In this document: piece after piece, positions 2-62,000 of the stretch | Layout: each line of letters begins with the position of its first letter | How positions within the stretch are numbered: position 1 is the first letter of the stretch | From: a virus | Taxonomy: Duplodnaviria > Caudoviricetes | DNA length: 64,000 bases | Direction: 5' to 3' (one strand) | Virus record (IMG/VR): IMGVR_UViG_3300030060_004467 | Location: 1,335 to 65,334 of that record | Program-made: the position numbers and the translations under genes | Notes under the pieces: model-generated | What the model was told of the DNA's origin: nothing | Database searches by the model: none | Seen by the model: only the letters and a program-made list of their open reading frames with translations

Positions 2-3000
2 AAGGAAGTTAAAGACCCAGAGACTGGTAAGAAGACACGTGTTCCAGCCCGCAGGCGTCGTTTGAGCTCAGCTGTGGCTGCAGCTACAAGAGATGCCGAA
101 GGTCCAATGAAAGATTTTGAAGGCAAGGTTAGAGAAAAGGTATCTAATCAGGCTGCTAAGAATGTCTTCAAAGGCGTCGTCAATATAAACTATGGTGATC
201 CAGGGGCTATGGAGCTGGACATCTACATGGGTAGTAAAGGTGCTGTTCAAAGACCGTCAAGTGCTGTTGATAATGCTTTGAGCGCTATGGAGTCCAGGAC
301 TGGTAGCGTATTTGAATCCAGGGCAGAGGATGCACCGACTCCAGGGAGACCTGAGGGTGAGTTCCAGCAGAGAGACCTGACCAGATTCGGTAGATTTAAG
401 GCCAGGTGGATTCGAAGGCTGCAGGATAAGTACAGCGACATCATGAATCTGCAGGGGGATGTAGAGACATTCTTGGGTAGAGCCGTAAGAGAGGATGAGG
501 ATTTCAAGATGGCCGAGGAGCTCATGTACGGAAAGACGGCGAGCGACCTCAAGAAGCTTGATCAAAAGATCGAAAGGCTAACGGACAACATGAAGGCAAA
601 TGGGGTCAACGTGGGTGAGCTTACCGATTACCTCTACGCACTCCACGCCAAGGAAAGAAACGACGTCATCTTTGAAAGAGACGGTGTTGAGAACGGCAGT
701 GGTATGTCGAATGCAGAGGCCTCGGCAATCCTTGACGGGATCTCTGAGGGCAAAAGGGCTGCCTTGGACAGCGCCCTGAAGATTGTAAGAGAGATTCAGC
801 AGGACACTAGAAACACGATGGTGGAGTTTGGTCTGGAGACAGCTGAGACTGTTGATGCGTGGGAGAGCCTGTTCGAAAACTACGTGCCGCTTTCAGGTAT
901 TGCTACTGACGAGTTCAGCAGTGATAATACCCCCTATCCAACAGGCGGTGCTGGTATGCAGGTACGAGGTCCTATGACCAAGAGGGCTGCTGGTAGAAAG
1001 AGCAAGGCTGATAACCTTGTGGCTCAGATCATTGCGCAGAACTCTGCCGTAAAGATACAAGCCAGAAAGAACGAGGCGCTTGGAACCCTTCACACCCTCA
1101 TTACAAACAATCCAAACCCAGCAATCTGGGAGATCGTTGACGACGCTAAGTTCGGGGACCCGTCAGTTGTACCAGTAAGAATTGGCGGCAGACAGGAGTT
1201 CATTAAGTTCACTGAGCCTCAGCACGCTGAGACGCTCAAGAACATGAACATCCCGAAGACGGTGTGGTTGGCTAAGGTCCTTTCGCCTCTTAACAACTGG
1301 CTAAGACGCTCGTTTACAACACTTAACCCTGAATTTGTAATCTCCAACTTCTCAAGGGACATTCAGTCTGCACTTTTCAATGCGGCTGCGGAGGCTGAGA
1401 TTGAGGGTGGTCAGATACTTGGGGCGCAGGTGATGGGGGATATGGCTCGAATGGTTGGACCAGCAATGAAAGCTCTGCTCAAGGAGACTAATCCAAACTC
1501 GCTTGGGAAGTTGTTCAAAGAAAACCCAATCATTGGTAAGTACTACCAGGATTTCGTCGAGGACGGAGGACAGACTGGGTGGGGGTATCAGAAAACCCTG
1601 CAAGAAATTGCAGCTGACCTTGAGAAATCCACGACAGATAAGTCTAGGGCCCAGGAGATTCTTGGTGCGGTCAAAGAGAATACAATCGATGTGGTTGAGG
1701 GCGTCAACGATGCGTTCGAAAATGCAATTAGGCTCTCCTCATACATTGCCGCAAGAGAGAATGGAGTAAGCAGAGCTAAGGCCGCGCAGTTCGCAAAGAA
1801 CATTACGGTGAACTTTAACAAGCACGGTGAGTACGGTCAAATTGCAAATCAACTCTACCTATTCTTCAATGCGTCAGTTCAAGGTACGGCTAGACTTGGC
1901 AGATCTCTTGTCACTCTTAAACCACCTAAGGCTCCCGACGGATCGTCTCGTGAGTGGTATCAGAGAATCAACACCGCACAGAAGATGGCGGCTGGACTAA
2001 CTGTATTCTCGGCGATGCTTGCCCAGGTGGGTAGAGCTATGTCTGACGAGGATGAGGACGGCACCCTGTACTGGGACAAGATTCCAGATTACGTCAAAGA
2101 GAGAAACCTCGTCGTCATGTTTGACGGGAAGAACTACTTCAAGATACCGCTTCCCTACGGATTCAACATGTTCGCCAATTTGGGGACAGGTATGGTGGAC
2201 CTTGCGGCAGGAGCTAAGTCTTGGGATGAGACGGGATGGTTCTTGGCTAACTCGTTCCTCAGCTCGTTCTCCCCTATCAGCTACGGGCAGTCAAGAGACC
2301 TTTACACCTACGGGACTAAGGCTATAGTGCCAACAGCGTTCAAGCCAGCCGTTGAGGTCGCTATGAATGAGTCGTATTTCGGGGGTCCAGTGTATGCAAA
2401 GCAGTTGCCATTCGGTGCGGCTAAGCCTGAGTCTCACATGTCGTTTAAGTCTCCCAGAATGGTACAGTCCTTTTTTGAACTTATGAACGACGCGACGGGC
2501 GGGTCTGCTCAGGTCCCAGGGGCTGTAGATATTAACCCTGATAAATTCTGGCACATCTTTGACTACTTCGTTGGAGGGGCTGGACAGTTCGTGGGTAGGA
2601 CTGTCTCTACGGCTAGAGAGGCGGTGGTCAAGGCTACCAACGACGAGCTTGAGGTCTCGTTTAACGATATACCTCTCATGCGTAAGATTTACGGTGAGCC
2701 CTCTAAGTATTACGACATGGAGAAGTTTAAGGATCGCGAGGTAGAGATTACTCAGCTTATGAGAGAGGCTAAGGACCCTAAGGCTCGCCGCAATGATCCT
2801 GACAGATATAAAGGTATTGGAAGTCTTGACAGAGCGCTTAAGGCTGTAAATAAGAGACTAAAGCTTATTAGAAAGGCTAAGCGAGACGCTAAGGATATTA
2901 AAGATTACGCCGAAAGGCAAATAAGAATACAGTACCTTATGGACGAAGAGCGCAAGCTTATCATGAGGTTTAACAAAGCATACGACAATGTCAGAAAAGA

Positions 3001-3007
3001 AAACTAA
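2..3007 (+). CDS. Large polyvalent/ejection protein, C-terminal part with LPD38-like domain (5'-truncated)
   Basis: Frame open from position 2. Motifs NPEFVISNFSRD, ITVNFNKHG, YLFFNASVQG and YFKIPLPYG are typical of LPD38-type C-terminal domains of phage polyvalent proteins. Confidence 0.75.
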   Translation, partial: KEVKDPETGKKTRVPARRRRLSSAVAAATRDAEGPMKDFEGKVREKVSNQAAKNVFKGVVNINYGDPGAMELDIYMGSKGAVQRPSSAVDNALSAMESRTGSVFESRAEDAPTPGRPEGEFQQRDLTRFGRFKARWIRRLQDKYSDIMNLQGDVETFLGRAVREDEDFKMAEELMYGKTASDLKKLDQKIERLTDNMKANGVNVGELTDYLYALHAKERNDVIFERDGVENGSGMSNAEASAILDGISEGKRAALDSALKIVREIQQDTRNTMVEFGLETAETVDAWESLFENYVPLSGIATDEFSSDNTPYPTGGAGMQVRGPMTKRAAGRKSKADNLVAQIIAQNSAVKIQARKNEALGTLHTLITNNPNPAIWEIVDDAKFGDPSVVPVRIGGRQEFIKFTEPQHAETLKNMNIPKTVWLAKVLSPLNNWLRRSFTTLNPEFVISNFSRDIQSALFNAAAEAEIEGGQILGAQVMGDMARMVGPAMKALLKETNPNSLGKLFKENPIIGKYYQDFVEDGGQTGWGYQKTLQEIAADLEKSTTDKSRAQEILGAVKENTIDVVEGVNDAFENAIRLSSYIAARENGVSRAKAAQFAKNITVNFNKHGEYGQIANQLYLFFNASVQGTARLGRSLVTLKPPKAPDGSSREWYQRINTAQKMAAGLTVFSAMLAQVGRAMSDEDEDGTLYWDKIPDYVKERNLVVMFDGKNYFKIPLPYGFNMFANLGTGMVDLAAGAKSWDETGWFLANSFLSSFSPISYGQSRDLYTYGTKAIVPTAFKPAVEVAMNESYFGGPVYAKQLPFGAAKPESHMSFKSPRMVQSFFELMNDATGGSAQVPGAVDINPDKFWHIFDYFVGGAGQFVGRTVSTAREAVVKATNDELEVSFNDIPLMRKIYGEPSKYYDMEKFKDREVEITQLMREAKDPKARRNDPDRYKGIGSLDRALKAVNKRLKLIRKAKRDAKDIKDYAERQIRIQYLMDEERKLIMRFNKAYDNVRKEN

Positions 3008-3428: not shown

Positions 3429-4135
3429 GACTTATAACAGATGATACGAATCCACCACGTCGAAGGAGACGCAGGAGGTTGACGTCAACTGGCGTGCCTA
3501 TAGCCGATAAAGTTTTCGAAACACCCATGTCTGAAAGAGAAAAACAAGAGATGGCTCTTTCTTTGGCCGCTGCCAATCAGATGAATAGATTGACAGATCC
3601 TATGACTCAACAACCGCTTAGTGAGGATCACCCTCTAGCTAAGGAGTATATTGAGGATAATTTGTTTGCTAGCGTTGGTTACGATGGCGACTCATCTGAG
3701 GATGCATGGTCAGCAGCTACAGTTAGCAACTTGGCAAAAGCTTTTGATCCTACATTTGAAGGCAGCGCACGTCACTCCGATTACATAAGAAGAGGTTTTC
3801 AAAACGAAGGACCTGTAGGGTATAAGTCTGAAAAGGCTAAGAGACGAACTGATTATCAGGTAGGAGACATTCTATTTAAGGGTAGAAAGGACGAAGATGG
3901 CAATCCTATTGGACCACAAACATTTAGTCAGTTTGAAAAAGACGCCGAGGGTAAGGGAAAGTATGGAGATAAGGGTGGATATGGATCTCATTCAGATATT
4001 ATAACTGGCACGGGTGTAGATGAAAAGGGTAAATACTATGAAGTTCAAGGTGGAAATATTGGTGATAAGCTAATGACAAAAAGATTGTACGCTAAAGAAC
4101 TTGCAAAGAGGTACGCTGGTAGACTTACACAATAA
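3425..4135 (+). CDS. DUF2272/CHAP-like putative peptidoglycan hydrolase
   Basis: AWSAATVS, HSDYI, YQVGDILF, SHSDII and VQGGN motifs; directly follows the holin. Confidence 0.55.
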   Translation: MRLITDDTNPPRRRRRRRLTSTGVPIADKVFETPMSEREKQEMALSLAAANQMNRLTDPMTQQPLSEDHPLAKEYIEDNLFASVGYDGDSSEDAWSAATVSNLAKAFDPTFEGSARHSDYIRRGFQNEGPVGYKSEKAKRRTDYQVGDILFKGRKDEDGNPIGPQTFSQFEKDAEGKGKYGDKGGYGSHSDIITGTGVDEKGKYYEVQGGNIGDKLMTKRLYAKELAKRYAGRLTQ

Positions 4136-6198
4136 TGAAAAACTTACTTCTATTATTAACTATTATACCTAGTATGATATTTGCTCAGCCCAGCTGGGTG
4201 AGGGTAGAGTTTCAAAGCGACACCTACGGTCAAGAGAGCACCTGGAACATATACCCTGTGGGATCTGACGAATCTGTAGCCTCTGGAGGTCCATACGCTG
4301 ACTCAACATATTTTGAACAAACTATTCCGCTTCCATCTGGTGAGTACAATATGGTTGTAAACGACGCCTTTGGCGACGGGATATGCTGTCAGTTTGGTGA
4401 AGGATGGTTTAAGCTAAACAACGATTGCAATCTAGACATATCTGTATTTGATTTTAACACAGAGCAGATAACAGTTCCTTTCATTCTTGATCAATGCGAA
4501 CTGCCCATGCCTGGGTGTATGGACGAATCGTCTAACAACTACAACCCATGGGCTACCGTTGATAACGGAACATGTAACGTCAGCGAATGTCCTAATGGTC
4601 AGGCGTTTGTATCCATGGAGCTTACTCTAGATAACTGGCCCAACGAAACTGGATTCACATTGGTGGACCTAGCTGTTGGTCAGTTCTACGAGCAGGTACT
4701 TCCAGGAGGATTTAATTTTGGAGATCAGCTAGCTACCTACACTTACGATTTTTGTGTTGCACTTGGATTTGAACTGATTCTGACAGACACATACGGAGAC
4801 GGTCTCAATGGCTCAGCAAGCGGGGGTCAAGACGGGGGTGTGGTCATTACTGCCTGTGACGAAGAAGTTATATGGGAGCTTGAGGATTTAGCGTACTCAG
4901 ACAATGATGGAAACGTTTACTATTCTGGGGCTGTGTTTGTAGAGCCATGTGAAATAGAAGAGCCTGTAGTGGGATGCATGGACGACGATTATGTTGACTA
5001 CAACCCAGAGGCGACAGAGGCGGGGGACTGCATCACCCTACACACCTGGGGGTGCATGGACCCAGAATCATTTAACTATGATTCAACTGCCACAATATCA
5101 GACCTTAACAGCCCTTGCGTTACTACTATAAGAATTGGTGACGCAGCAGGAGACGGATGGGGGAACTCACACATAGGAGTAAAGCAGGGAGACCTGCAGT
5201 GGATCTTTACGATGGGGCCTGGAGAGTTTTCTCAGTCATGGGACCTGGTCCTTGACTCAGACGAAAAAGTAGACGTGTATTATTTTGAAGTTGGAGGACC
5301 ACAGCAACCGCCTCAAGAAACTGAGTTTCAGACACTTCACAACTCTATTCTTGTTACAAACGAGCTTGGAGACACTCTTATGGTTGAAGGTCTTAATCCA
5401 TTTTTTGACAATGGTCAAGGAGCTCTTCAACCTTTCAAGAACCCAGAGTGGAACGTGTACAGCTTCATGCCTTACTGTGGCACTAGCTGCATTCCATTCA
5501 TGTACGGATGCACTGACAATACAGCACAGAACTACGATAACGAAGCCAATACAGAGGATGGAAGTTGCTATTACAATGCTGGATGCACTCAGGCTGGATA
5601 CGTCGAGTACTACAATCAGGGCTACGAAGCCGACTATGATGACGGAAGCTGTGAGACACTTGCCGTGTTTGGATGCATGGATTCAGAGTCTCTAAACTAC
5701 GATCAAGAAGCAAATGTAGACACGGGGGACTGCATTGAAGTTGTGCTTGACTGCATGGATCCTAACGCTTTTAATTACAATGAGTTAGCAAACACTCCTG
5801 ACGAAGATGCCTGTCTCTATGACGCGGGCTGTATCACAGGTCCAGGCGAACCATACTGGGCCAACGACTACTGTTACTCGTGGGTGATCGAGGTTGATCC
5901 ATATTGCTGCGAGACAGCGTGGGATGCGGTGTGTGCAGAGATGTACGACTACTGTGGCGCTGGCGTTACTTCAGTGGAAATGGCCGTAAGGTCATCGCTT
6001 CGCTTCTTTCCAAACCCAACAGCACGGGTGGTAAACATTCAGGCGCCCGTAGGCACTTTAATTACTTTGTTCGACTCAAGGGGTGCGGTTGTTGAAACAA
6101 CAACGGGAAACAAGGTTGAGCTGCCATCACCAGGACCGTATGTAATCATGGCTAATTATAAGGGTAGAATCAAGAGAGAAACAATCGTAAGACAATGA
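4135..6198 (+). CDS. Secreted acidic Cys-rich repeat protein with T9SS type-A-like C-terminal sorting domain
   Basis: N-terminal signal peptide, multiple GCMD..xNY..A..DDGSC repeats, C-terminal FFPNPT...LFDSRG...PGPYVI...IVRQ. Confidence 0.7.
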   Translation: MKNLLLLLTIIPSMIFAQPSWVRVEFQSDTYGQESTWNIYPVGSDESVASGGPYADSTYFEQTIPLPSGEYNMVVNDAFGDGICCQFGEGWFKLNNDCNLDISVFDFNTEQITVPFILDQCELPMPGCMDESSNNYNPWATVDNGTCNVSECPNGQAFVSMELTLDNWPNETGFTLVDLAVGQFYEQVLPGGFNFGDQLATYTYDFCVALGFELILTDTYGDGLNGSASGGQDGGVVITACDEEVIWELEDLAYSDNDGNVYYSGAVFVEPCEIEEPVVGCMDDDYVDYNPEATEAGDCITLHTWGCMDPESFNYDSTATISDLNSPCVTTIRIGDAAGDGWGNSHIGVKQGDLQWIFTMGPGEFSQSWDLVLDSDEKVDVYYFEVGGPQQPPQETEFQTLHNSILVTNELGDTLMVEGLNPFFDNGQGALQPFKNPEWNVYSFMPYCGTSCIPFMYGCTDNTAQNYDNEANTEDGSCYYNAGCTQAGYVEYYNQGYEADYDDGSCETLAVFGCMDSESLNYDQEANVDTGDCIEVVLDCMDPNAFNYNELANTPDEDACLYDAGCITGPGEPYWANDYCYSWVIEVDPYCCETAWDAVCAEMYDYCGAGVTSVEMAVRSSLRFFPNPTARVVNIQAPVGTLITLFDSRGAVVETTTGNKVELPSPGPYVIMANYKGRIKRETIVRQ

Positions 6199-10030: not shown

Positions 10031-11863
10031 TCAATTTTCTAAAGAATCCACCCCTGTTGATAAGAAATCAGTGAATACAGGCATCGAACCCTTTTGATCG
10101 AACTTAATTGATTCAAACAGAGGTTGTTGCTTATACCAAGAGAAAAATCCAGTGTGGGAAAGATTCATGGTTAGCTTATAAGGTTCATCGAGTGGTGTTG
10201 GTCTACCGCCTGTCTCTGTCTCACGCACCTTCCTAACATGTAACTCGCTTAGCTTGCGTATGTTATGATCTGCTGATTGAACCTTTCGATGAATAGTCAT
10301 AAAGCAATCAGCTCTATTTACGAACTTTCCACCACCCTCTGTGTCCTCAGCATACGGGGCAAGGGGTAAGCCATCCGCACCCTTGCGACGCTGCGCCTCA
10401 GTCACTGCATGCATATTAAGCCACACAGCTACGTTATTAGACTTACTAAATGTCAAGAACTCCGATGCTGCTTCGTAATGATAGTCGTGAACGCCTATCG
10501 ACGTATTTCTCATATCCAACTTGAGACTATTGTATGGGTCAACAAAAATAGCATCAACCTCTTGCTGGCGCATGATCTTCTCCATAAATACAATGATATC
10601 AGAATAGCTATATACGCTCTCGTTGCTTATAACCACAAAGTGATCCTGAACCCATGCGTAGGCTTGCTTACGCTCAAAATAGTTCATGTCTGCAACTTTC
10701 TTGTCCATTGCGAACTGCATGAGATGCATCTTAACTGATGCGGTCCTGTTCTCGCTAGAGTATATGATCCACTTCCACCCGTGCCTAATAGACGAATTAG
10801 CTATAAGGTAAAGAGCTGTAGTAGTCTTACCCACATTTGAGTGACCGTTTATAATTACAAACTCCTTCTTGTATCTAAAGTATTCATCAAGGGAAGCGTC
10901 ACCAGTGTCAAGACCAATATCAATCTTGCCCTGAGAAAAATCATCTATCCATCGAAAGTCTTCATCATCTGATGATACAAACGACATGTCACCGTCGTTT
11001 ATGAGCATCTCTCTCTTGACATTACGCTCCTCATCTATGAGGTCTCGTATGGGCATAGTCTTTCCGTTCTCAATGCCGTCACGAATCGTGAGCCTAGCCA
11101 TATCAGGTGAGTCGATGTCTCTCTTAGATATCTCCCTAAATAGCACACGTACCGCCTCCTCTTCCTCCATCTTACCTGCTCCGATGTATCCACCACAAAG
11201 TCGTGCTGCATCGAATAGAGTCCTATGCTTGTCCCCATCCTGTGCATTACGAATCATACGCGCAGCTAGGTTAAGCTTCATGTAATCTGTATAGTCGTAT
11301 GCCTCGTTGATTGGCACCTGAGCCTCAGCACGTTCAGTAGTGAAAGCTCCAAACTTCTTGTGCTCATCCTTTATGATGATGTCTGGATCATGTGACTCCC
11401 AGCATGCACGGGACTCGTTAATACCTGACTCATCTAATGCCAGCCCATGTGTTCTTTCAAAGTATTTAATCAGAGCACGAAAGTGATCCCTATGACGCTC
11501 TGGATTAGTTATCTGTACCAAAGCTTTGACGCCCTCACCGCTAGGCGAAGTCCAGCATGAATGAATAAAATCATCCGTAGCAAGAGCTTTCTTTGTTGAC
11601 TTAACGTCAACATGATCAAAGTCTAGAACAATAAACCCAGAGTGTTCAAATAGCGAGTCATCAGAACGAGACGAAAACTCCCCGCTGAAACAAACAACGG
11701 GGAGCGCCTTCTTCTTCTCTTTGTTGCCAGACCTTACATCAGCTACTAGAGTACTCGACTTCCCACTGCGAATCCTCTCCAGAGCTGACTGTAGTGGAAT
11801 GTGATGAGGTGTTGTCTTGTCGAATACGTTCTTGAATATCGTTACTTGCATTGTCTTGGGCAA
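10031..11863 (-). CDS. Primase-helicase (VirE-N/BT4734-like primase domain plus DnaB/Twinkle-like helicase)
   Basis: N-terminal HSGFIVLDFD, SPSGEGVK and SRACWESHDP; Walker A GHSNVGKTT; IFVDPYN; HVRKVR arginine finger. Confidence 0.85.
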   Translation of the reverse strand: MPKTMQVTIFKNVFDKTTPHHIPLQSALERIRSGKSSTLVADVRSGNKEKKKALPVVCFSGEFSSRSDDSLFEHSGFIVLDFDHVDVKSTKKALATDDFIHSCWTSPSGEGVKALVQITNPERHRDHFRALIKYFERTHGLALDESGINESRACWESHDPDIIIKDEHKKFGAFTTERAEAQVPINEAYDYTDYMKLNLAARMIRNAQDGDKHRTLFDAARLCGGYIGAGKMEEEEAVRVLFREISKRDIDSPDMARLTIRDGIENGKTMPIRDLIDEERNVKREMLINDGDMSFVSSDDEDFRWIDDFSQGKIDIGLDTGDASLDEYFRYKKEFVIINGHSNVGKTTTALYLIANSSIRHGWKWIIYSSENRTASVKMHLMQFAMDKKVADMNYFERKQAYAWVQDHFVVISNESVYSYSDIIVFMEKIMRQQEVDAIFVDPYNSLKLDMRNTSIGVHDYHYEAASEFLTFSKSNNVAVWLNMHAVTEAQRRKGADGLPLAPYAEDTEGGGKFVNRADCFMTIHRKVQSADHNIRKLSELHVRKVRETETGGRPTPLDEPYKLTMNLSHTGFFSWYKQQPLFESIKFDQKGSMPVFTDFLSTGVDSLEN

Positions 11864-19967: not shown

Positions 19968-20132
19968 TTAGTAATCACGGGTCGTGATATTGAATTCACG
20001 TAGGTCGATGTATATGTCCTCGTCCCACGCAGCCTCGATAAGGCGTAAAGCCTCCTTGTCGTCCGTGTATGTGAAGTTCTCGTAGGCGAGAATTTTCTCC
20101 TCTGCGTTTAACTCTCTGAATGGATTAAACAT
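19968..20132 (-). CDS. Small acidic protein (54 aa, not in ORF track)
   Basis: MFNPFRELNAEEKILAYENFTYTDDKEALRLIEAAWDEDIYIDLREFNITTRDY; starts 25 nt after the HHR1 cleavage site. Confidence 0.6.
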   Translation of the reverse strand: MFNPFRELNAEEKILAYENFTYTDDKEALRLIEAAWDEDIYIDLREFNITTRDY

Positions 20133-20151
20133 AGCTTGAAGTTTGAAGTTT

Positions 20152-20201
20152 GATACAGACCCCCGAAGGGGTTTCGTCCAATCAGGACTCGTCAGTGTAC
20201 C
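20152..20201 (-). ncRNA. Type I hammerhead ribozyme HHR1
   Basis: gguaca-CUGACGA-gucc(ugauu)ggac-GAAA-cccc(uucg)gggg-UC/uguauc; predicted cleavage after C at 20158. Confidence 0.93.
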
Positions 20202-20368
20202 TTGATGATTTCTGTTAAAGCACCTTCGATGCTGTCTTGCAGGTCAAATGTGTCTTGTGTGTACTCTCCGTTCACCTCGCGAACGTCGTCGCTCAGGAGT
20301 TCAGGCGCGTTGTCCAACAGGTATTCTGTGACGAGGATAGCCACGTCTTTGATGTCATTCGTTGTCAT
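20192..20368 (-). CDS. Small acidic protein (58 aa, not in ORF track) flanked by HHR2 and HHR1
   Basis: MTTNDIKDVAILVTEYLLDNAPELLSDDVREVNGEYTQDTFDLQDSIEGALTEIIKVH; its stop TGA is the UGA of the HHR1 core. Confidence 0.65.
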   Translation of the reverse strand: MTTNDIKDVAILVTEYLLDNAPELLSDDVREVNGEYTQDTFDLQDSIEGALTEIIKVH

Positions 20369-20389
20369 TGTATGTAGTTTTTGAAGTTT

Positions 20390-20439
20390 GACACAGACGC
20401 CTCACGGCGTTTCGCGCACTCAGCGCTCGTCAGTGTGCC
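20390..20439 (-). ncRNA. Type I hammerhead ribozyme HHR2
   Basis: ggcaca-CUGACGA-gcgc(ugagu)gcgc-GAAA-cgcc(guga)ggcg-UC/uguguc; predicted cleavage after 20396. Confidence 0.93.
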
Positions 20440-20441
20440 TG

Positions 20442-20621
20442 TCAGATAGGGTCGAAGTACCTGCGAATCTCCTGCTCCGCACGCTCGTCCTCTGCGTCGT
20501 CAGCCCCGATGAGGTCAGCCAACGTCAGGTGTGCGTCCGTGAAGTGGGTGGACACGATGTCCTGCACGATGGTGGTGAGGGCTTGTACGCGCCCCTCGTG
20601 CGCTTGCTTGGAAGTAGCCAT
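20442..20621 (-). CDS. Small acidic early protein (59 aa)
   Basis: MATSKQAHEG...RYFDPI from ATG 20621; stops 2 nt before HHR2 stem I. Confidence 0.6.
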   Translation of the reverse strand: MATSKQAHEGRVQALTTIVQDIVSTHFTDAHLTLADLIGADDAEDERAEQEIRRYFDPI

Positions 20622-20641
20622 TGTGTTGAAGTTTGATGGTC

Positions 20642-20685
20642 GCAAGATACGACCGAATTGTGGAAAAAACAAGTCTGTCTGTTAA
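20642..20685 (-). promoter_or_regulatory. Possible weaker early promoter
   Basis: TTG...TATCTTGC with upstream TTAAC; imperfect match to TAnnTTTG. Confidence 0.35.
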
Positions 20686-20704
20686 GTCGCTGTGACTCAG
20701 GGAA

Positions 20705-21403
20705 TTACAAGATGTCGTCGGCAGTCACGCCCTCGTCCATCATATCCATATTCACGGCACGTAACATATCCATCACGTCCGTGTACCCTTGCTCGCGCAG
20801 TACCGCGTAGGGTGTGGGTGCTACGTAGTCCGCAGGGTGTTGCGCTTTCGCCTTTGGCGCGGGTGCGTCAACCTCCGTGCGTGTGCCGAATGGCGATGCC
20901 GCCGTTGGCTTGTTGTCGCACACGACCTCGGTCTTGCGAACGTTACGCTTGGCGCTCGCTCGGTTGCTCAGGCGTTGTGCCTGTGCCTCCAACTTGTCGT
21001 TCTTGGTCTTGCGCTTGGTCTTCGTGCGCTTGGGTGCGGGCTTCTTTGGGTCGGTCAGCACCAACCCGCCCAACTCGCGCTCCAACTGCTCGACTGCCTT
21101 GCGCTCAACCTCCGTGATGTCGCTCACGGGGGTGTACGTGTTGGCCGTTTGACAGGCGTCCACGATGTCGAACATCTGCTCCATCGTCAGCCCGTACTGC
21201 TTGCACAGCACGTCCGCACGGGACTGCTTCGCAGTCGTGGCTTTGGCTTTGCGTTTGGGCTTGGCCGTCTTGGGCTTCGCGCTCTTGCGCTTGGCCGCTT
21301 GCTCCTGTGCGAACTTAGCCTTGTTAGCGGCTCTGCGCTCAGCTCGTGTGTACTTGCGCCCTGTCTCGGGGCAGTGTGTGGGGGTGTAGGTCTTTGCAGA
21401 CAT
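20705..21403 (-). CDS. Lys/Ala/Arg-rich (histone H1-like) early protein
   Basis: 232 aa from ATG 21403; AKRKSAKPKTAKPKRKAK and KKPAPKRTKTKRKTK tracts; acidic C-terminus. Confidence 0.65.
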   Translation of the reverse strand: MSAKTYTPTHCPETGRKYTRAERRAANKAKFAQEQAAKRKSAKPKTAKPKRKAKATTAKQSRADVLCKQYGLTMEQMFDIVDACQTANTYTPVSDITEVERKAVEQLERELGGLVLTDPKKPAPKRTKTKRKTKNDKLEAQAQRLSNRASAKRNVRKTEVVCDNKPTAASPFGTRTEVDAPAPKAKAQHPADYVAPTPYAVLREQGYTDVMDMLRAVNMDMMDEGVTADDIL

Positions 21404-21443
21404 AGGTAAAAAGTTTGAAGTTTTGGACTGCGCTTCGTGCGCT

Positions 21444-21493
21444 GACACAGACCCCCGTAGGGGTTTCGGCTACTCAAGCCTCGTCAGTGTGCC
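21444..21493 (-). ncRNA. Type I hammerhead ribozyme HHR3
   Basis: ggcaca-CUGACGA-ggcu(ugagu)agcc-GAAA-cccc(uacg)gggg-UC/uguguc; predicted cleavage after 21450. Confidence 0.93.
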
Positions 21494-21499
21494 TGTGCG

Positions 21500-21673
21500 T
21501 CACTTGCTCATTCGCTCCCGCGCCTCTTCGAGCAGGGCTTGGTGCTCCATCTCCGTGTGCGAGCCGTGAATCAAGGCGTTCAGAATCTCGTCGTCGGTCA
21601 TGGTGCGCAAGGCAAAGTAGTTCGCAGACCCGCTCGTGCGGATGCTCTCGGTGGTTGGTGCTGTGGTATTCAT
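21500..21673 (-). CDS. Small protein (57 aa, not in ORF track) flanked by HHR4 and HHR3
   Basis: MNTTAPTTESIRTSGSANYFALRTMTDDEILNALIHGSHTEMEHQALLEEARERMSK; AAACTTCAA leader. Confidence 0.6.
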   Translation of the reverse strand: MNTTAPTTESIRTSGSANYFALRTMTDDEILNALIHGSHTEMEHQALLEEARERMSK

Positions 21674-21694
21674 AGTGCTTTGTGTTTGAAGTTT

Positions 21695-21744
21695 GACACA
21701 GACGCCTCACGGCGTTTCGTCCATTAAGGACTCGTCAGTGTGCC
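21695..21744 (-). ncRNA. Type I hammerhead ribozyme HHR4
   Basis: ggcaca-CUGACGA-gucc(uuaau)ggac-GAAA-cgcc(guga)ggcg-UC/uguguc; predicted cleavage after 21701. Confidence 0.93.
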
Positions 21745-21884
21745 TTGACGCCCTGCATCTTCGCCAAGATGTCTTTGGCGCGTGCCAGTTCCGCTCGTGT
21801 GGCTTCCGTGCCGTAGGCGTAGTGCGCTTCTGCGGCTCCGTTCACGTATGCGACTGCTGTTTTGATGTTGTGGGGAGTGTACAT
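21735..21884 (-). CDS. First early gene, 49-aa protein
   Basis: MYTPHNIKTAVAY...MQGVKAH; its stop TGA is the UGA of the HHR4 core. Confidence 0.6.
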   Translation of the reverse strand: MYTPHNIKTAVAYVNGAAEAHYAYGTEATRAELARAKDILAKMQGVKAH

Positions 21885-21932
21885 TGTGCGTGTGTTTGAA
21901 GTTCTTCGATTCGACCGTCGAACCGATGCCCC

Positions 21933-21979
21933 CAAAGATAGGTAAATCAAACGGCTGTGTCAAGCCAACGGATGTTAAC
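21933..21979 (-). promoter_or_regulatory. Promoter of the ribozyme-containing early operon
   Basis: TTG-N20-TATCTTTG with upstream GTTAAC, as in the other early promoters. Confidence 0.65.
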
Positions 21980-22574
21980 GTCAGCAATGACGGGGGATGC
22001 AGAGCGAAATTTATACGAGGTTATGTTCATTGTGTGTCCCCGTGATAGGGGATGCAATGTTGTAGTAAAGGTATAGGTGATGTATTGTCCTACGTTCACG
22101 TAGAGCTACCTACCTGCGGTGACCTGATGCGATGATGGAAGTAACGATGCGTAAGTCACTGAGGAACAAGCGATTGCAATCTCAGAAGTAAATCTCCATA
22201 CTATGGCAGAATCAAGGGAGGGGGGTTTGGAAATGTAATTTCCAAAAGATTTGCGTCCCTACATATATATATATAATCCCCCCTATGCGTAGTTCTGATC
22301 GTTTTTTTCGACCCAAACCCGAAAAAACCGCCGATATCCTCAAAAATTTTCACGCGGTATTTTTTGATTGACTCCAATCTACCCATCATAACTGTCTGAT
22401 TTAAAGGTGAAAGCGGTATTTAACCTCTAGTAAGGCTTGAATATTGACATTTAAAGATTTCTGTTATAACTTTGCTATCAAATCAAGATCAAAACAGTAT
22501 AAATAGTAGGGTGTGTGTACACACATTACACCATCCGATCTAGATTTAACTGTTAAATACAGGATAGCTGTGTC
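21980..22574. other. Non-coding region between divergent arms (candidate terminus/origin/packaging region)
   Basis: About 600 nt with no credible ORF, a (TA)n run at about 22265-22275, G/C tracts and the palindrome TGTGTGTACACACA at 22512-22525. Confidence 0.45.
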
Positions 22575-31034: not shown

Positions 31035-31108
31035 GCACCTGTAGCTCAACTGGATAGAGCAGCACACTTCTAATGTGCAGGTTCGGGGTTCGAGTCCCTG
31101 CAGGTGTA
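31035..31108 (+). tRNA. tRNA-Arg (anticodon TCT)
   Basis: GCACCTG/CAGGTGT acceptor, GCTC/GAGC D arm, GCACA-CTTCTAA-TGTGC anticodon arm, GGTTCGAGTCC T loop; CCA not encoded. Confidence 0.92.
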
Positions 31109-31121
31109 CAAATTAAATAAA

Positions 31122-59032: not shown

Positions 59033-59065
59033 GTGCTCTAATCTTATAATTAAGTATATTTGCGT

Positions 59066-62000
59066 ATGGCAAATGAATTTGATAACACAGATCCTCTGCA
59101 GTTGAGCAATACGCCACAGGCAGCCGTTCCACAGCCTGTACAGCAACAAGCATCCGTTCCAGATCCAGTTCAGCCTCAACAGCCTGTTCAGACACAGAGA
59201 GAGCTAACTAACGAGGACCGCATCAATTTTTACAGAAGTAAGGGTTACTCAGATAGCCAGATCGTTGGCATTATGCAGGCATCGGGCAAGGCCACCCGTG
59301 ATCAGACTCAGGGTATTATTCTTGCTCAGCGAGAAATTAGAAATCGCGAGATCCTTGCAGAGAATGAAAGGCTCAAGAAGGAGCAGGAGGAGGCAGAGCG
59401 TCATCGCATTGAAAGAGAAAAGGCCCTTGAGGATCTCTTAAAAAAAAAAGATTCAGAATCGGTTCCTACCACTTTGCCTGGTGGCGCTCAAGTTCTTGAT
59501 GATCTAGGTTTACCACAGGAAGAGCCAAGAGATGTAGACGCAGAGATCAACGATCTTGTTCAGCAGGATGGCTTTGAAAGTCTTAGATACGAGAACTCTA
59601 GACCAGAAGATTACGATACACCAGAGCTTCTTCGTATGTATCAGGCCAATGGTCAGCTTGCTGATCTTGCCGTGAGCATGTCGTTGGGTGATGCTGGGAT
59701 AAAAGCAATTAAGGAGGGTAATGCAGCCGACCTGAAAGAGGTCATAGAAGCCTTGTCTGAGGATAATAGTGGATGGGGAGCCCTATACTCTCAGCATCTA
59801 ACGGGCGATAGCAGTGAACTACAGAAGGCTCTGTTTGACTTGTACGATGAATCTAACAGGCAGTCGTCACTGGCTATGCAGGAGCTCCAGTCTATCAACG
59901 AAGAGCTTGGACTACAGTGGAACTACAATCATGATAGTGATATAGATAGGGCTCAGGCTATGATGGAGTCCATGAGGATTAGAGAGGACGGAGAGAAAAC
60001 TACACAGAGGTATCAGGACATGCTGTTTAGCCAGCGTATGGCTAGGGCTAGATACGATGAGCTTGAGAATATGTTGCCAGACTGGATGGTGGCTAGGGGG
60101 GTGGCGGTGGGTAATTTTGTAAATACTATTAGATCTGTAATGCCAAATCAAATCGCTGGTCTGGCATTCGATCAGATAGGTGATAGAGATAGGGCTAACT
60201 ATTATATGGAAAAGGCACGGATGGTGTCTGACTACAATCAACAGCTAACGACGGAGAGAAACAAAAGGAGCTACGAGTTTACCGACGAGGAGCTACAAAT
60301 GGGGATAACTGATAGCATTATTTCTGCTTGGAATGGCGAGGGCGACGGTGGTTGGGGTCTTGTTGCTAGAAAGGCTGCTTCGACGTTTGAAGATGTATTA
60401 CCAGATGTAGTGCTTGCAATCGCCACTATGGGTGAGGGCACCTCAATGAAACAGATTGCAAAAGAAAGTCTTAAGGAGGCTACAGAAGCCTCTGTAAAAA
60501 GAGGTCTAAAAAGAAGAATACTTTTGGGCAACGGACTCACTAATGGAACCGCAGCACTATTTGGTATTAGAACCACTGGTGATGTTTATGAGTCGGTATT
60601 TGATGACCCCACTAGAAGTAAAAACGAGAAACTGTTTTTAGCTACAACTGTAGGAGTAGCGGAGGCTACTTTACAAAGAATCTTTGTTGGAGCCGAGGCT
60701 GCTATATCTAAAGGAGGAACCGCCTTTAAAAATTTCGCAACAGGCGCCGCCGAGAAGAATTGGAAGGAGTCTATGAAAGAGGCATTGAAGGGGGTTACAA
60801 AGAGGCAGATTGCTTTGAGAGGAGCTGGTCAGGCATCTGGCGAGTTTCTTGAAGAGGCACTGATTGAGACTATAGACCAGGGGGTTAGAATCATTCAGGA
60901 TAAGGCAGCTGGGAGAAAGAGCGATGATGTAAACTGGAATGCTATTATGGACGCTGGTCTCGCTGGTCTGCTGGGCACTGGACCTATGACCACGCTTCAG
61001 AGCACATCTGCAATGTTTGGTAATCACAAGGTTAAAAAAACTCGATCATTTATTGTAGAGCAACTCAGACAACTTGATAGAGACATAACCCTAGAGAGCA
61101 ACACCACCGTACTAGGTGGACTTAAGTCAAGGCGTAGAGAGCTTGAAGGGTACTTGAATCAACTGGAGGGTATGTCTGAGGCTGAGTATCATAAGCTTAC
61201 AGACAGCGAGAAAAAGCAAATCAATGCAATTCATAGAGAGCTTGCTACTACTCGTGATCAAATCAAAAGGGAAAAGAACTCAGACACCAAGAGAAGGCTA
61301 GAGGAGAGGTTTGAGGGCTTGTATAAAAGAAAGGTGGATATTGAGAAGGCAGCTGAGTCTAGAGCCTCTATGCCACCATCACCGCCTCTTGCAGATTCTG
61401 AGGGTAATGATGTGGCATCTAACGAAAAGGACGTAGACCCAGAGACTCAAAGAGAGCATGATGGTATGCGTGAAGAGCAGGATAGGGATGCTCCAGAGAT
61501 TACAGAGGCTATTGACAAAAAAGTTGACGGTCATGTTGCATCACACCGACGAGCTGTAGAAAGAGTTGGCTCAGATCCAGATAACGCAACTAGACACGCT
61601 AGAACAGCTAAAGGCATGCGCACAAAAGCTAAAAAGCTTTTGATGGCTGAGGGCATGACTGATGCTGAGGCTGAGGCAGAGATTGAAAGAAGAATCGGTA
61701 CAGCTGAAGCTGACACCGACACTAAGGGCCCCAGACCCTCTAGGTCTGTTGACCTAGATATTAACTCTGACACCGACGTAAATGCTGACTGGATTGGTGA
61801 GGGGCCAGGTCAGATACCGCTTCCCGTAGTGGCGCAGGTAGATAGAATGAAACGTGCATTTGGTAAGGTTCTAAATGCTATGGGCGTTAAGCTTAAGGTT
61901 CATTTAGATGCAGAATCATTTATGGATGAGACTGGCACGGGCAAGAACTCAAGAGGTGTTTATGATCCAAAAACCAAAACAATTCATCTTAATCCAAATA

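What the first reader, a model, noticed from the sequence alone, without database searches (positions are those of the whole stretch)
20192..21744. Stop codons embedded in the ribozyme catalytic core, suggesting translation-coupled cleavage
Seen in sequence: ORF 21735-21884 ends AAG GCA CAC TGA (KAH*) and ORF 20192-20368 ends AAG GTA CAC TGA (KVH*). Their last codons form stem I and the stop is the UGA of CUGACGA. The other two upstream ORFs stop 2 and 6 nt before stem I. Inference: a terminating ribosome would cover or unfold the ribozyme, so cleavage could depend on translation status, acting as a timing switch. The dual coding also fixes the protein C-termini.
Basis: partly seen in the sequence, partly recalled or inferred. 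Interest (0 to 1): 0.75.

Follow-up and report, generated by a model that had tools for sequence, protein, structure and literature searches.

The report
Phage hammerhead ribozymes that contain stop codons
Four self-cleaving hammerhead RNAs sit between small genes of a marine phage, and two upstream genes borrow the ribozyme's built-in UGA as their stop codon, which looks like a recurrent but evolutionarily unstable side effect of tight packing, not a proven switch.

Summary
Four intact type I hammerheads lie on the minus strand (20152-20201, 20390-20439, 21444-21493, 21695-21744). ORFs 21735-21884 and 20192-20368 end at the UGA of the CUGACGA core. The other two upstream ORFs stop 2 and 6 nt before stem I.

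A covariance model finds 138 relatives in 89 IMG/VR stretches plus the window, with strong covariation. Among 108 confidently called upstream ORFs:
- 24 (22%) end at the core UGA
- 5 read deeper (p = 6e-8 against random frame)
- 62 stop within 12 nt of the core

The overlap is not conserved between orthologues.
- The g4-hammerhead junction has offsets of -12, 0 and -24 in close relatives.
- 3 of 24 g5 homologues end K[AV]H, and 0 of 6 fetched g5 loci have a hammerhead after the gene.
- Compared with its nearest relative, the overlap costs g5 one residue.

Best reading: these are intercistronic mRNA-processing ribozymes. Each sits just before a conserved Shine-Dalgarno-less leader, 25-27 nt upstream of the next AUG. 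The core UGA is used as a stop when the frame allows, and deeper read-in is selected against.

A terminating ribosome must unfold the ribozyme. A selected translation-gated timing switch remains untested and is not favoured. Clustered phage hammerheads are already known, so this is modestly interesting.

The parts
21695..21744 (-). Hammerhead D, type I. Stem I 21744-21739 pairs with 21700-21695. Core CUGACGA is 21738-21732. Predicted cleavage lies between 21701 and 21700. The core UGA (21737-21735) is the stop of g1.
   Evidence: 81.9 bits with R1, by construction
21444..21493 (-). Hammerhead C, type I. Predicted cleavage lies between 21450 and 21449. The g2 stop lies 6 nt before stem I.
20390..20439 (-). 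Hammerhead B, type I. Predicted cleavage lies between 20396 and 20395. The g4 stop lies 2 nt before stem I.
20152..20201 (-). Hammerhead A, type I. Predicted cleavage lies between 20158 and 20157. The core UGA (20194-20192) is the stop of g5.
   Evidence: (Hammerhead_1, 20.9 bits)
21735..21884 (-). g1, 49 aa, ends ...GVKAH* at the core UGA of hammerhead D. No homologue found.
   Evidence: (codon score positive; the competing 87-aa frame is negative)
21500..21673 (-). g2, 57 aa. Its own TGA lies 6 nt before hammerhead C.
20705..21403 (-). g3, 232 aa, basic and low-complexity. 71-75% identical in L060, L037 and L083, where it is the first gene after the promoter.
20442..20621 (-). g4, 59 aa. Its own TGA lies 2 nt before hammerhead B. 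Orthologues stop at different offsets relative to the same ribozyme.
20192..20368 (-). g5, 58 aa, ends ...IIKVH* at the core UGA of hammerhead A. The family consensus ends ...IIKQ*.
19968..20132 (-). g6, 54 aa, the first gene after hammerhead A.
21684..21694 (-). Leader motif AAACTTCAAAC directly after stem I of hammerhead D. The AUG of g2 lies 27 nt after the cleavage site.
21413..21423 (-). Leader motif before g3. It is separated from hammerhead C by a small hairpin (21430-21442).
20379..20389 (-). Leader motif (one mismatch) directly after hammerhead B. The AUG of g5 lies 27 nt after the cleavage site.
20134..20151 (-). Two overlapping leader motifs directly after hammerhead A. The AUG of g6 lies 25 nt after the cleavage site.
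21935..21963 (-). Promoter-like site (TTGACA, 17 nt, TATCTT, followed by TG) that would start the transcript carrying all four ribozymes.
   Evidence: consensus match only. The same site is conserved upstream of g3 in L037, L060 and L083.

Best explanation
The four elements are genuine type I hammerhead self-cleaving ribozymes. They sit in the intercistronic gaps of a minus-strand operon of small genes in a roughly 65-kb marine tailed phage.

Inferred mechanism:
- One transcript from the promoter-like site near 21963-21935 is cut after the GUC of each ribozyme.
- Because stem I is the open helix, the upstream fragment keeps its whole ORF and its stop codon. It ends in the folded stems II and III with a 2',3'-cyclic phosphate.
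- The downstream fragment starts with a 5'-OH, 6 nt of former stem I and an unstructured leader without a Shine-Dalgarno sequence (AAACUUCAA). The next AUG lies 25-27 nt from the new end.

The stop-in-core overlap is real. It is best explained as opportunistic use of the UGA that every hammerhead core must contain. When a ribozyme module comes to lie against the 3' end of a gene in the right frame, the gene ends at that UGA at a cost of 1-3 residues. Genes in the other two frames keep their own stop just before stem I, because reading deeper into the ribozyme is selected against.

A ribosome terminating there must transiently unfold the ribozyme, so translation and cleavage do compete physically. 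The evolutionary instability of the overlap argues that this competition is tolerated and is not a tuned switch.

Shown: sequence, fold, covariation, offsets, frame bias, instability among relatives. Inferred: cleavage itself, the nature of the RNA ends, the role in mRNA processing, and selection against read-in.
For: Ribozyme identity:
- All core nucleotides are present in all four copies: CUGANGA, GAAA, the G10.1-C11.1 and A15.1-U16.1 pairs, and C17.
- The three-way junction is the minimum-energy fold in 3 of 4 copies.
- Stem II differs between the window's own copies while keeping pairing: UCC/GGA, CGC/GCG, GCU/AGC.
- Model R1 finds 138 matches in 90 sources. 99.3% of cells are paired against 73.1% in shuffles. 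13 of 15 pairs change on both sides, and the two invariant pairs are the two that hammerheads conserve. The covariation score is 0.645, against 0.14 for shuffles and at most 0.051 for slid partners.

Processing role:
- The ribozymes lie only in intergenic gaps of one co-oriented gene string.
- The distance from cleavage site to AUG is 25-27 nt in 27 of 30 family members that carry the leader.
- The same leader elsewhere follows a promoter-like site (11 of 96 sites) or a long hairpin (27 of 96), and follows a hammerhead at 30 of 96. The ribozyme therefore occupies a slot otherwise held by elements that could create or mark a 5' end.
- Shine-Dalgarno-like 4-mers precede 3 of 49 long ORFs, against 12% of random windows.
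- Perreault et al. 2011 (PMC3088659, passages read) showed clustered hammerheads flanking genes in prophages. They observed cleavage of about 2-kb polycistronic constructs in vitro at all sites.

By-product reading of the stop overlap:
- 24 of 108 called family ORFs end at the core UGA.
- The g4 junction has offsets of -12, 0, -24 and others, so 1 of 13 overlaps.
- g5 homologues end K[AV]H in 3 of 24 clusters.
- 0 of 6 g5 loci have a hammerhead after the gene. Instead the stop overlaps the next ATG: ATGA in 5 and TAATG in 1.
- Homology between the window and L094 runs through ...ATCAAGGTA and breaks exactly where the ribozyme continues. The window's protein is therefore one residue longer.
- Metagenome contigs break homology at the ribozyme edges (20202, 21746-21748). 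One contig lacks 21424-21910 altogether, like L060, L083 and L037.

Selection against read-in:
- 24 ORFs end at the core against 5 that read deeper (p = 6e-8).
- Frame counts are 46:6:15 for stops at or after -12 and 16:9:16 for stops further upstream.
Against: - No cleavage data exist for these sequences.
- The four copies fall below Rfam's gathering scores: 20.9 against 34 for Hammerhead_1, and 28.7 against 48.5 for a mis-registered Hammerhead_3 alignment.
- Folding z-scores of the single copies are weak, from -0.6 to -2.2.
- No loop II-stem I tertiary contact was identified, so activity at cellular Mg2+ is uncertain.
- The one RNA-library contig on the region (X20, 234 nt, 20387-20616) runs about 9 nt past the cleavage site of hammerhead B. 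Some uncut RNA, or contaminating DNA, therefore exists.
- Stops pile up at offsets -10, -9, -6 and 0, and 62 of 108 lie within 12 nt of the core. Frame 0 is over-represented overall (62:15:31, p = 1e-7). Simple compaction does not predict this, so some functional link between termination and the ribozyme could exist.
- Junctions of the same leader without a hammerhead are not compact: the median gap from stop to leader is 79 nt.
- Upstream ORFs were called with my own codon log-odds score, not a validated gene finder.
- Rows are not phylogenetically independent.
- The alignment used for pair counts was fitted to the model.
Confidence: 0.6

Rival explanations
1. One reading: ribosome-gated cleavage as a selected timing device. 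The stop is placed in or at the ribozyme, so a terminating or queued ribosome keeps stems I and II unfolded. Cleavage, and with it the release of the next cistron, then depends on how heavily the upstream early gene is translated.
For: - With UGA in the A site, the ribosome's mRNA channel covers roughly the next 10-13 nt. This is established footprint knowledge, not tested here. Stem I, the core and the 5' strand of stem II therefore cannot be folded.
- Stops lie within 12 nt of the core in 62 of 108 family contexts and within 30 nt in 96 of 108.
- Frame 0 is over-represented (46:6:15 among close stops).
- There is no sign of selection to move stops away from stem I.
Against: - The exact overlap is not conserved among orthologues: g4 in 1 of 13 junctions, g5 endings in 3 of 24 clusters, and 0 of 6 g5 loci with a ribozyme after the gene.
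- 41 of 108 contexts have the stop more than 12 nt upstream, and 12 have it more than 30 nt upstream.
- Within this one window the four junctions differ (0, -16, -12, 0).
- The overlap at g5 looks like a recent junction that adds a single residue.
- Nothing here measures cleavage.
Confidence: 0.18
2. Recombination-linker model. Each hammerhead plus leader is mainly a conserved boundary sequence at which small gene cassettes are exchanged between related phages. The stop overlap is simply the scar of a microhomology junction, and self-cleavage is secondary or vestigial.
For: - Homology between metagenome contigs and the window ends exactly at the ribozyme edges (loose ends at 20202 and 21746-21748).
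- A contig joins a g5-like gene to a hammerhead D-like copy.
- The block g1-hammerhead D-g2-hammerhead C is present or absent as a unit.
- The 5' flank NAGGYACA is shared by many copies.
- The g5 junction lies in the shared letters AAGGTA.
Against: - A pure DNA-level linker would not need the catalytic core intact in every copy. It would also not need compensatory changes in all three stems.
- The core nucleotides and H17 are conserved across 120 distinct contexts: CTGANGA in 120 of 120, and TC or TA before the cut site in 120 of 120.
- Linker behaviour and RNA function are compatible, so this is more an account of origin than a true alternative.
Confidence: 0.1
3. Fail-safe terminator model. 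The core UGA is kept in frame as a back-up stop, forming tandem in-frame stops with UAG or UAA at -9, -6 or -12. Readthrough ribosomes then never cross the ribozyme into the next cistron's leader.
For: Frame-0 stops just upstream of the core are common: -9 in 11 cases, -6 in 8 and -12 in 3. Each forms an in-frame pair with the core UGA. Deep read-in is rare, in 5 of 108.
Against: - Part of the -9 and -6 signal is forced by stem I sequence (UAG|CCACA, G-UAA-CA).
- Stops in the other two frames inside the ribozyme are only slightly above shuffled expectation: 72 and 63 of 120 against about 57. Only 29 of 120 ribozymes hold stops in all three frames. There is thus no general design to block translation.
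Confidence: 0.07

Closest known systems
Clustered hammerhead ribozymes flanking genes in prophages (Perreault et al. 2011, PLoS Comput Biol, PMC3088659; passages read)
   Same: Several hammerheads lie close together between single genes or short gene blocks of phage origin. Processing of long phage transcripts into gene-length mRNAs was proposed there. In that paper, in vitro cleavage was seen at all sites of three such arrays.
   Different: Those arrays are in prophages of Clostridium, Azorhizobium and Agrobacterium and mix ribozyme types. This one is a uniform, minimal type I family in marine virus contigs, always followed by one conserved leader. That paper's main text has 0 occurrences of 'stop codon'. 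Its supplements could not be opened, so I cannot tell whether this family is in its alignments.
Rfam Hammerhead_1 (RF00163), type I hammerhead
   Same: Same core, same open stem I, same cleavage-site triplet GUC. Copy A aligns end to end with the model.
   Different: The score is 20.9 bits against a gathering score of 34. The other three copies are not reported for this family. Stems are at minimal length (6, 4 and 5 bp), and no stem I internal loop is visible.
Type I hammerheads in 5' UTRs of fungal and plant RNA viruses, where self-cleavage enables translation (Lopez-Galiano et al. 2026, NAR, PMC13725137; abstract and passages read)
   Same: A type I hammerhead sits immediately upstream of a coding region. 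The cut creates the 5' end of the translated RNA.
   Different: That system is eukaryotic and cap-independent, on RNA genomes. This one is a DNA phage, the sites are internal to a polycistronic mRNA, and no translation data exist.
RNase III processing sites between early genes of coliphage T7 (recalled, not checked in a call)
   Same: Intercistronic RNA elements cut a long early transcript into gene-length mRNAs with structured 3' ends.
   Different: In T7 a host enzyme cuts a hairpin. Here the RNA would cut itself. Relatives of this phage carry long hairpins in the same slot, which may be the enzyme-dependent counterpart. This was not tested.
Ribozyme insulators of synthetic biology such as RiboJ (recalled, not checked in a call)
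   Same: A hammerhead placed before a ribosome-binding leader removes upstream context and standardises the 5' end of each cistron.
   Different: RiboJ is engineered, derived from a satellite RNA, and carries an added hairpin. The elements here are natural, and the upstream ORF runs into them.
Ribosome-position-dependent RNA folding, as in leader-peptide attenuation of the trp operon (recalled)
   Different: Attenuators have conserved, precisely placed codons and alternative helices. Here the stop position drifts among orthologues, and no alternative fold was found or sought.

Membership tests
Hammerhead ribozyme | Conserved catalytic core: C3 U4 G5 A6 N7 G8 A9 on one strand and G12 A13 A14 on the other | tested here: met
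   All four copies read CUGACGA ... GAAA. Across the family, 120 of 120 distinct contexts read CTGANGA.
Hammerhead ribozyme | Three helices radiating from the core, supported by compensatory changes | tested here: met
   The three-way junction is the minimum-energy fold in 3 of 4 copies. 99.3% of cells are paired, 13 of 15 pairs change on both sides, and the covariation score is 0.645 against 0.14. The alignment was fitted to the model.
Hammerhead ribozyme | Invariant G10.1-C11.1 and A15.1-U16.1 pairs, and a non-G nucleotide (H17) 5' of the cut | tested here: met
   GC in 115 of 115 and AU in 115 of 115 distinct rows. H17 is C in 114 and A in 6 of 120. It is C in all four window copies.
Hammerhead ribozyme | Site-specific self-cleavage giving 2',3'-cyclic phosphate and 5'-OH ends | not testable with these tools
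   No biochemical assay is available. The only RNA-library contig (X20) neither shows nor excludes cleavage.
Hammerhead ribozyme | Tertiary contact between stem I and loop II that gives fast cleavage at cellular Mg2+ | tested here: inconclusive
   Stem I is 6 bp with no internal loop. By eye, pairing of loop II with the leader is possible for copy C (5 bp) but not for copies A or D. The A residues flanking stem I are conserved.
Type I hammerhead (Rfam RF00163) | Stem I open, stems II and III closed by loops | tested here: met
Type I hammerhead (Rfam RF00163) | Score at or above Rfam's gathering threshold | tested here: not met
   20.9 bits against 34 for copy A. The other copies are not listed for this family. 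This is a database cut-off that penalises very short stems and is not a biochemical criterion.
   g4 junctions overlap in 1 of 13. g5 endings are K[AV]H in 3 of 24 clusters. 0 of 6 g5 loci have a ribozyme after the gene.
   This needs coupled transcription-translation assays.

The most novel reading that the evidence does not exclude
In this phage lineage, which lacks Shine-Dalgarno sequences, each early cistron needs its conserved AAACUUCAA leader close to a free 5' end to be translated. That end is supplied interchangeably by a promoter, by a long hairpin cut by a host nuclease, or by a hammerhead. Where the upstream stop lies in or at the ribozyme, termination traffic on the upstream gene sets how fast the next cistron's 5' end is released. 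Translation of one early gene would then time the activation of the next.
Probability: 0.15. Interest if true: 0.7.

Novelty: new member of a known kind. Interest (0 to 1): 0.4.

Why it matters
Hammerheads between phage genes have been known since 2011, but their purpose is still open.

This family offers an unusually clean natural system:
- a uniform minimal ribozyme
- a fixed 25-27 nt distance to the next start codon
- a shared leader without a Shine-Dalgarno sequence
- close relatives in which the same junction carries a promoter-like site or a long hairpin instead

Two family-wide statistics are new as far as my searches show. About a fifth of upstream genes end at the ribozyme's own UGA. 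Almost none read deeper. This gives direct comparative evidence that ribosomes are kept out of the catalytic body while termination on top of stem I is tolerated.

That makes the interplay of translation and self-cleavage testable with simple constructs. The result also warns annotators that short phage ORFs ending ...[AV]H may owe their last residues to a ribozyme.

Tried and rejected
- Longest-ORF rule for the upstream gene. It picked spurious frames, even for the window's own copies C and D. I replaced it with a codon log-odds score trained on 223 long ORFs of the loci. Of 120 contexts, 10 stayed ambiguous and 2 had no candidate. These 12 were left out of the offset counts.
- First census by regular expression (99 contexts, 90 called, 22 at the core). 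It was superseded by the covariance-model census and gives the same picture.
- 'N4-like phage'. I considered this because the ORF that wraps the record ends matches a 3,427-position PHROG profile. Pfam finds only LPD38, a domain of large polyvalent proteins, and no polymerase. I dropped it.
- Bacteroidota host. Promoter-like TTG-N17-21-TAnnTT[TG] sites and near absence of Shine-Dalgarno motifs fit it. The consensus is recalled. Pfam found no family at all in ORF 4135-6198. The host is not established.
- Three-frame stop design of the ribozyme: not supported.
- Loop II-leader pseudoknot: inspected by eye only, and not conserved among the four copies.
- Expression evidence. One RNA-library run (X20, oligo-dT, contigs only) has a single 234-nt contig on 20387-20616, covering g4 plus hammerhead B. 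It passes the cut site by about 9 nt. Contigs cannot show ends, and DNA may be present in the library, so there is no verdict.
- Known phage records. The only hit is a 265-nt match at 68% identity to a Pelagibacter phage, outside the ribozyme region.
- g1 homologues: none found beyond the window's own record. Conservation of that overlap cannot be judged.
- Pfam on the ten small early proteins: nothing above curated cut-offs.
- Literature on a stop codon inside a hammerhead core in phages. Searches found no such report. 'Stop codon' has 0 occurrences in PMC3088659 and PMC6765202. The two occurrences in PMC13725137 are unrelated. The library lacks most subscription-journal papers, and supplements were closed, so this is not proof of absence.
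I added the field and sent the report again unchanged otherwise.
Full report
**What is there.** The window is nearly all of a 65,334-base virus record rated complete. The gene string read leftwards from about 22,000 is on the minus strand. It has this order:
- a promoter-like site at 21963-21935
- g1 (21884-21735), then hammerhead D (21744-21695)
- g2 (21673-21500), then hammerhead C (21493-21444)
- g3 (21403-20705) and g4 (20621-20442), then hammerhead B (20439-20390)
- g5 (20368-20192), then hammerhead A (20201-20152)
- g6 (20132-19968) and further small genes, then replication genes (primase/helicase at 11863-10031)

The pattern CTGANGAG-N6-30-CGAAAC occurs four times, all here and all on the minus strand, against 0.04 expected. 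A covariance model built from the four copies finds no fifth copy. The next best score in the window is 13 bits, against 79-82 bits.

**Check of the observation.**
- g1 ends AAG GCA CAC TGA and g5 ends AAG GTA CAC TGA.
- In both, the final codons are stem I plus C3, and the TGA is U4-G5-A6 of the core.
- g4 stops 2 nt before stem I and g2 stops 6 nt before it.
- For g1 a longer competing frame exists (21987-21724, 87 aa). It has a negative codon score, while the g1 frame is positive.
- The public collection's gene calls give the 49-aa and 58-aa proteins.

**Are they hammerheads?** All defining core nucleotides, the G10.1-C11.1 and A15.1-U16.1 pairs and a C at position 17 are present. The three-way junction is the minimum-energy fold in three of four copies. 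Stem II differs among the window's copies while keeping pairing.

Rfam does not report them at gathering score. At relaxed threshold, copy A aligns end to end to Hammerhead_1 at 20.9 bits (cut-off 34). Copy D gets a mis-registered Hammerhead_3 alignment at 28.7 bits (cut-off 48.5).

The decisive evidence is comparative.
- A pattern scan of IMG/VR gave 89 stretches.
- Model R1 finds 138 matches in those stretches plus the window.
- On the 115 distinct rows, 99.3% of cells pair and 13 of 15 pairs change on both sides.
- The two pairs that never vary are exactly the two that hammerheads conserve.
- The covariation score is 0.645, against 0.14 for shuffles and at most 0.051 for slid partners.
- The alignment was fitted to the model, which favours the structure somewhat.

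Self-cleavage itself cannot be tested here.

**How common is the stop-in-core arrangement?** For the 120 distinct ribozyme contexts, I assigned the upstream ORF with a codon log-odds score. Of these, 108 were confident, 10 ambiguous and 2 had no candidate. The stop position is given relative to the U of the core UGA.

| Position of the upstream stop | Contexts (of 108) |
|---|---|
| At the core UGA | 24 |
| Deeper in the ribozyme | 5 |
| Inside the 5' strand of stem I | 10 |
| Abutting stem I (0-3 nt) | 28 |
| 4-21 nt before stem I | 29 |
| Further upstream | 12 |

Without the window's four copies, 22 of 104 end at the core UGA. So 2 of 4 in the window is ordinary for this family.

What is not random is the frame.
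- ORFs that enter the ribozyme end at the core UGA in 24 cases against 5. With random frames the expectation is 1:2 (p = 6e-8). After collapsing one homologue group the count is 22 against 5 (p = 4e-7).
- Stops at or after -12 fall in frames 0:1:2 as 46:6:15.
- Stops further upstream fall as 16:9:16.
- The ribozymes do not carry stops in all frames by design. Frames 1 and 2 hold a stop in 72 and 63 of 120, against about 57 expected, and only 29 of 120 hold stops in all three frames.

My reading is that reading into stems II and III is selected against, while ending at the first possible point, the core UGA, is tolerated.

*g4-hammerhead junction.* This is the most widely shared junction. The stop is at -12 in the window and in L083 (97% identical protein). 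It is at 0 in L060, where the protein is shortened and ends ...QAH. It is at -24 in L037, and at -18 to -112 in nine more distant relatives. So 1 of 13 overlaps.

*g5.* A search of the large protein collection gave 24 full-length clusters.
- 3 end K[VA]H: the window's own, P0002 and P0023.
- 12 end KQ, and the rest end variously.
- Six IMG/VR loci with g5 relatives were fetched. None has a hammerhead after the gene (model search with filters off).
- In those loci the stop overlaps an ATG instead: ATGA in five and TAATG in one.
- Two of the six have a hammerhead before the gene, as the window does.

The nearest relative (L094, 81% identical) ends ...AAG GTA TGA. The alignment with the window is continuous through AAGGTA and then breaks, and the window continues with the rest of stem I and the core. 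The overlap therefore added one histidine to the protein. It looks like a junction formed in a few shared letters.

*g1.* It has no homologue.

**Mosaic context.** The closest relatives (L060, L083, L037; g3 is 71-75% identical) lack g1, g2 and hammerheads D and C. In them, g3 directly follows the conserved promoter-like site.

Metagenome contigs show the same pattern.
- One contig joins 21423 to 21911.
- Several match only a ribozyme and then diverge exactly at its edges (20202, 21746-21748).
- One joins a g5-like gene to a hammerhead D-like copy. By eye it is in frame with the core UGA, and this matches the ending of P0023.

The ribozyme plus leader is thus a shared boundary between exchangeable small genes. 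The 20-22 kb segment also has a higher G+C content (0.56) than its surroundings (0.37-0.50).

**What the ribozymes most likely do.** Immediately after stem I comes the motif AAACTTCAA(A/T). It has 10 matches in the window against 1.9 expected. In 27 of 30 family members with this leader, the AUG lies 25-27 nt after the cut.

The same leader occurs at 96 distinct sites in the window and loci.

| Element upstream of the leader | Sites (of 96) |
|---|---|
| Hammerhead | 30 |
| Perfect hairpin of at least 10 bp | 27 |
| TTG-N17-21-TAnnTT[TG] promoter-like site | 11 |
| None of these | 28 |

Several of the last group hold imperfect hairpins, and some are probably chance matches inside genes.

Shine-Dalgarno-like motifs precede only 3 of 49 long ORFs, against 12% of random windows.

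Because stem I is the open helix, cleavage leaves the upstream mRNA with its stop codon and a structured 3' end. It gives the downstream mRNA a new 5' end a fixed short distance from its start codon. This fits the proposal of Perreault et al. 2011 that clustered phage hammerheads process polycistronic RNA (passages read) and a later review. It recalls type I hammerheads in the 5' UTRs of RNA viruses, whose cleavage enables translation (abstract read).

**Verdict on the interpretation.** A ribosome terminating at or next to stem I must unfold the ribozyme. This follows from footprint knowledge and applies to most family members. Stops pile up right at the ribozyme edge and frame 0 is over-represented overall (62:15:31). 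So I cannot exclude that termination next to the ribozyme is favoured.

But the exact overlap drifts in and out among orthologues, differs among the four junctions of this one operon, and at g5 is a one-residue junction scar. I therefore rate a tuned timing switch at about 0.18. I rate opportunistic use of the core UGA, with selection against deeper read-in, at about 0.6.

**Novelty.** Hammerhead arrays in phage genomes are known. This is a new, well-populated marine family of the known type I class. I did not find the stop-in-core statistics in print (searches; zero occurrences of 'stop codon' in the two key papers). Supplements and most subscription journals were out of reach.

Noticed in passing
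Related loci, e.g. L006 about 11,590-11,640 (+), L016 about 10,630-10,680 (+), L018 about 3,790-3,850 (+); 16-26 nt upstream of the AAACTTCAA leader: Long perfect hairpins occupy the slot that hammerheads occupy elsewhere. Stems are 12 or 15 bp in 23 of 27 cases, and loops are 12-13 nt. Their stems differ between copies while keeping pairing. They precede 27 of 96 leader sites. They could be nuclease processing sites or hairpin promoters. None was seen in the window's own early region.
   Followed up: partly
window 21424-21910: The block g1-hammerhead D-g2-hammerhead C is an insertion or deletion. It is absent from the closest relatives (L060, L083, L037) and from one metagenome contig that joins 21423 to 21911.
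   Followed up: partly
window 20196-20203 and L094 1660-1675: Homology between the window and the nearest g5 relative ends inside the shared letters AAGGTA. In the window these letters are both the last two sense codons of the ancestral gene and the start of stem I. This suggests a microhomology junction.
   Followed up: partly
window 20001-22000: G+C content is 0.56 here, against 0.37-0.50 in the rest of the window. The ribozyme-bearing segment may have a different history from the rest of the genome.
   Followed up: no
window, upstream of 49 ORFs of at least 120 aa: Shine-Dalgarno-like 4-mers precede only 3 of 49 starts. Several plus-strand genes have TATATTTG or a similar motif a few bases before the ATG (for example before 23186, 24464, 33379, 42183 and 44370), as another first-reader note says.
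   Followed up: partly
window 20387-20616: A 234-nt contig from an oligo-dT RNA library of a marine metagenome covers almost exactly g4 plus hammerhead B. It ends about 9 nt past the predicted cut site and 5 nt inside the start codon region.
   Followed up: partly
window 59060-64000 and 2-3007: One giant ORF appears to run across the ends of the record (more than 1,647 aa plus 1,001 aa in the window). It carries an LPD38 domain of large polyvalent proteins and matches PHROG profiles of about 3,400 positions. No polymerase domain was found.
   Followed up: partly
window 21430-21442 (-) and 20636-20652 (-): Two small hairpins lie just before leaders. One (GCGCACGAAGCGC) is between hammerhead C and the g3 leader. 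The other (GGTCG, 7-nt loop, CGACC) is before the g4 leader, where no ribozyme is present.
   Followed up: no
window 31035-31109 (+): A tRNA-Arg gene with anticodon TCT (67 bits in Rfam) lies just upstream of the large terminase gene.
   Followed up: no
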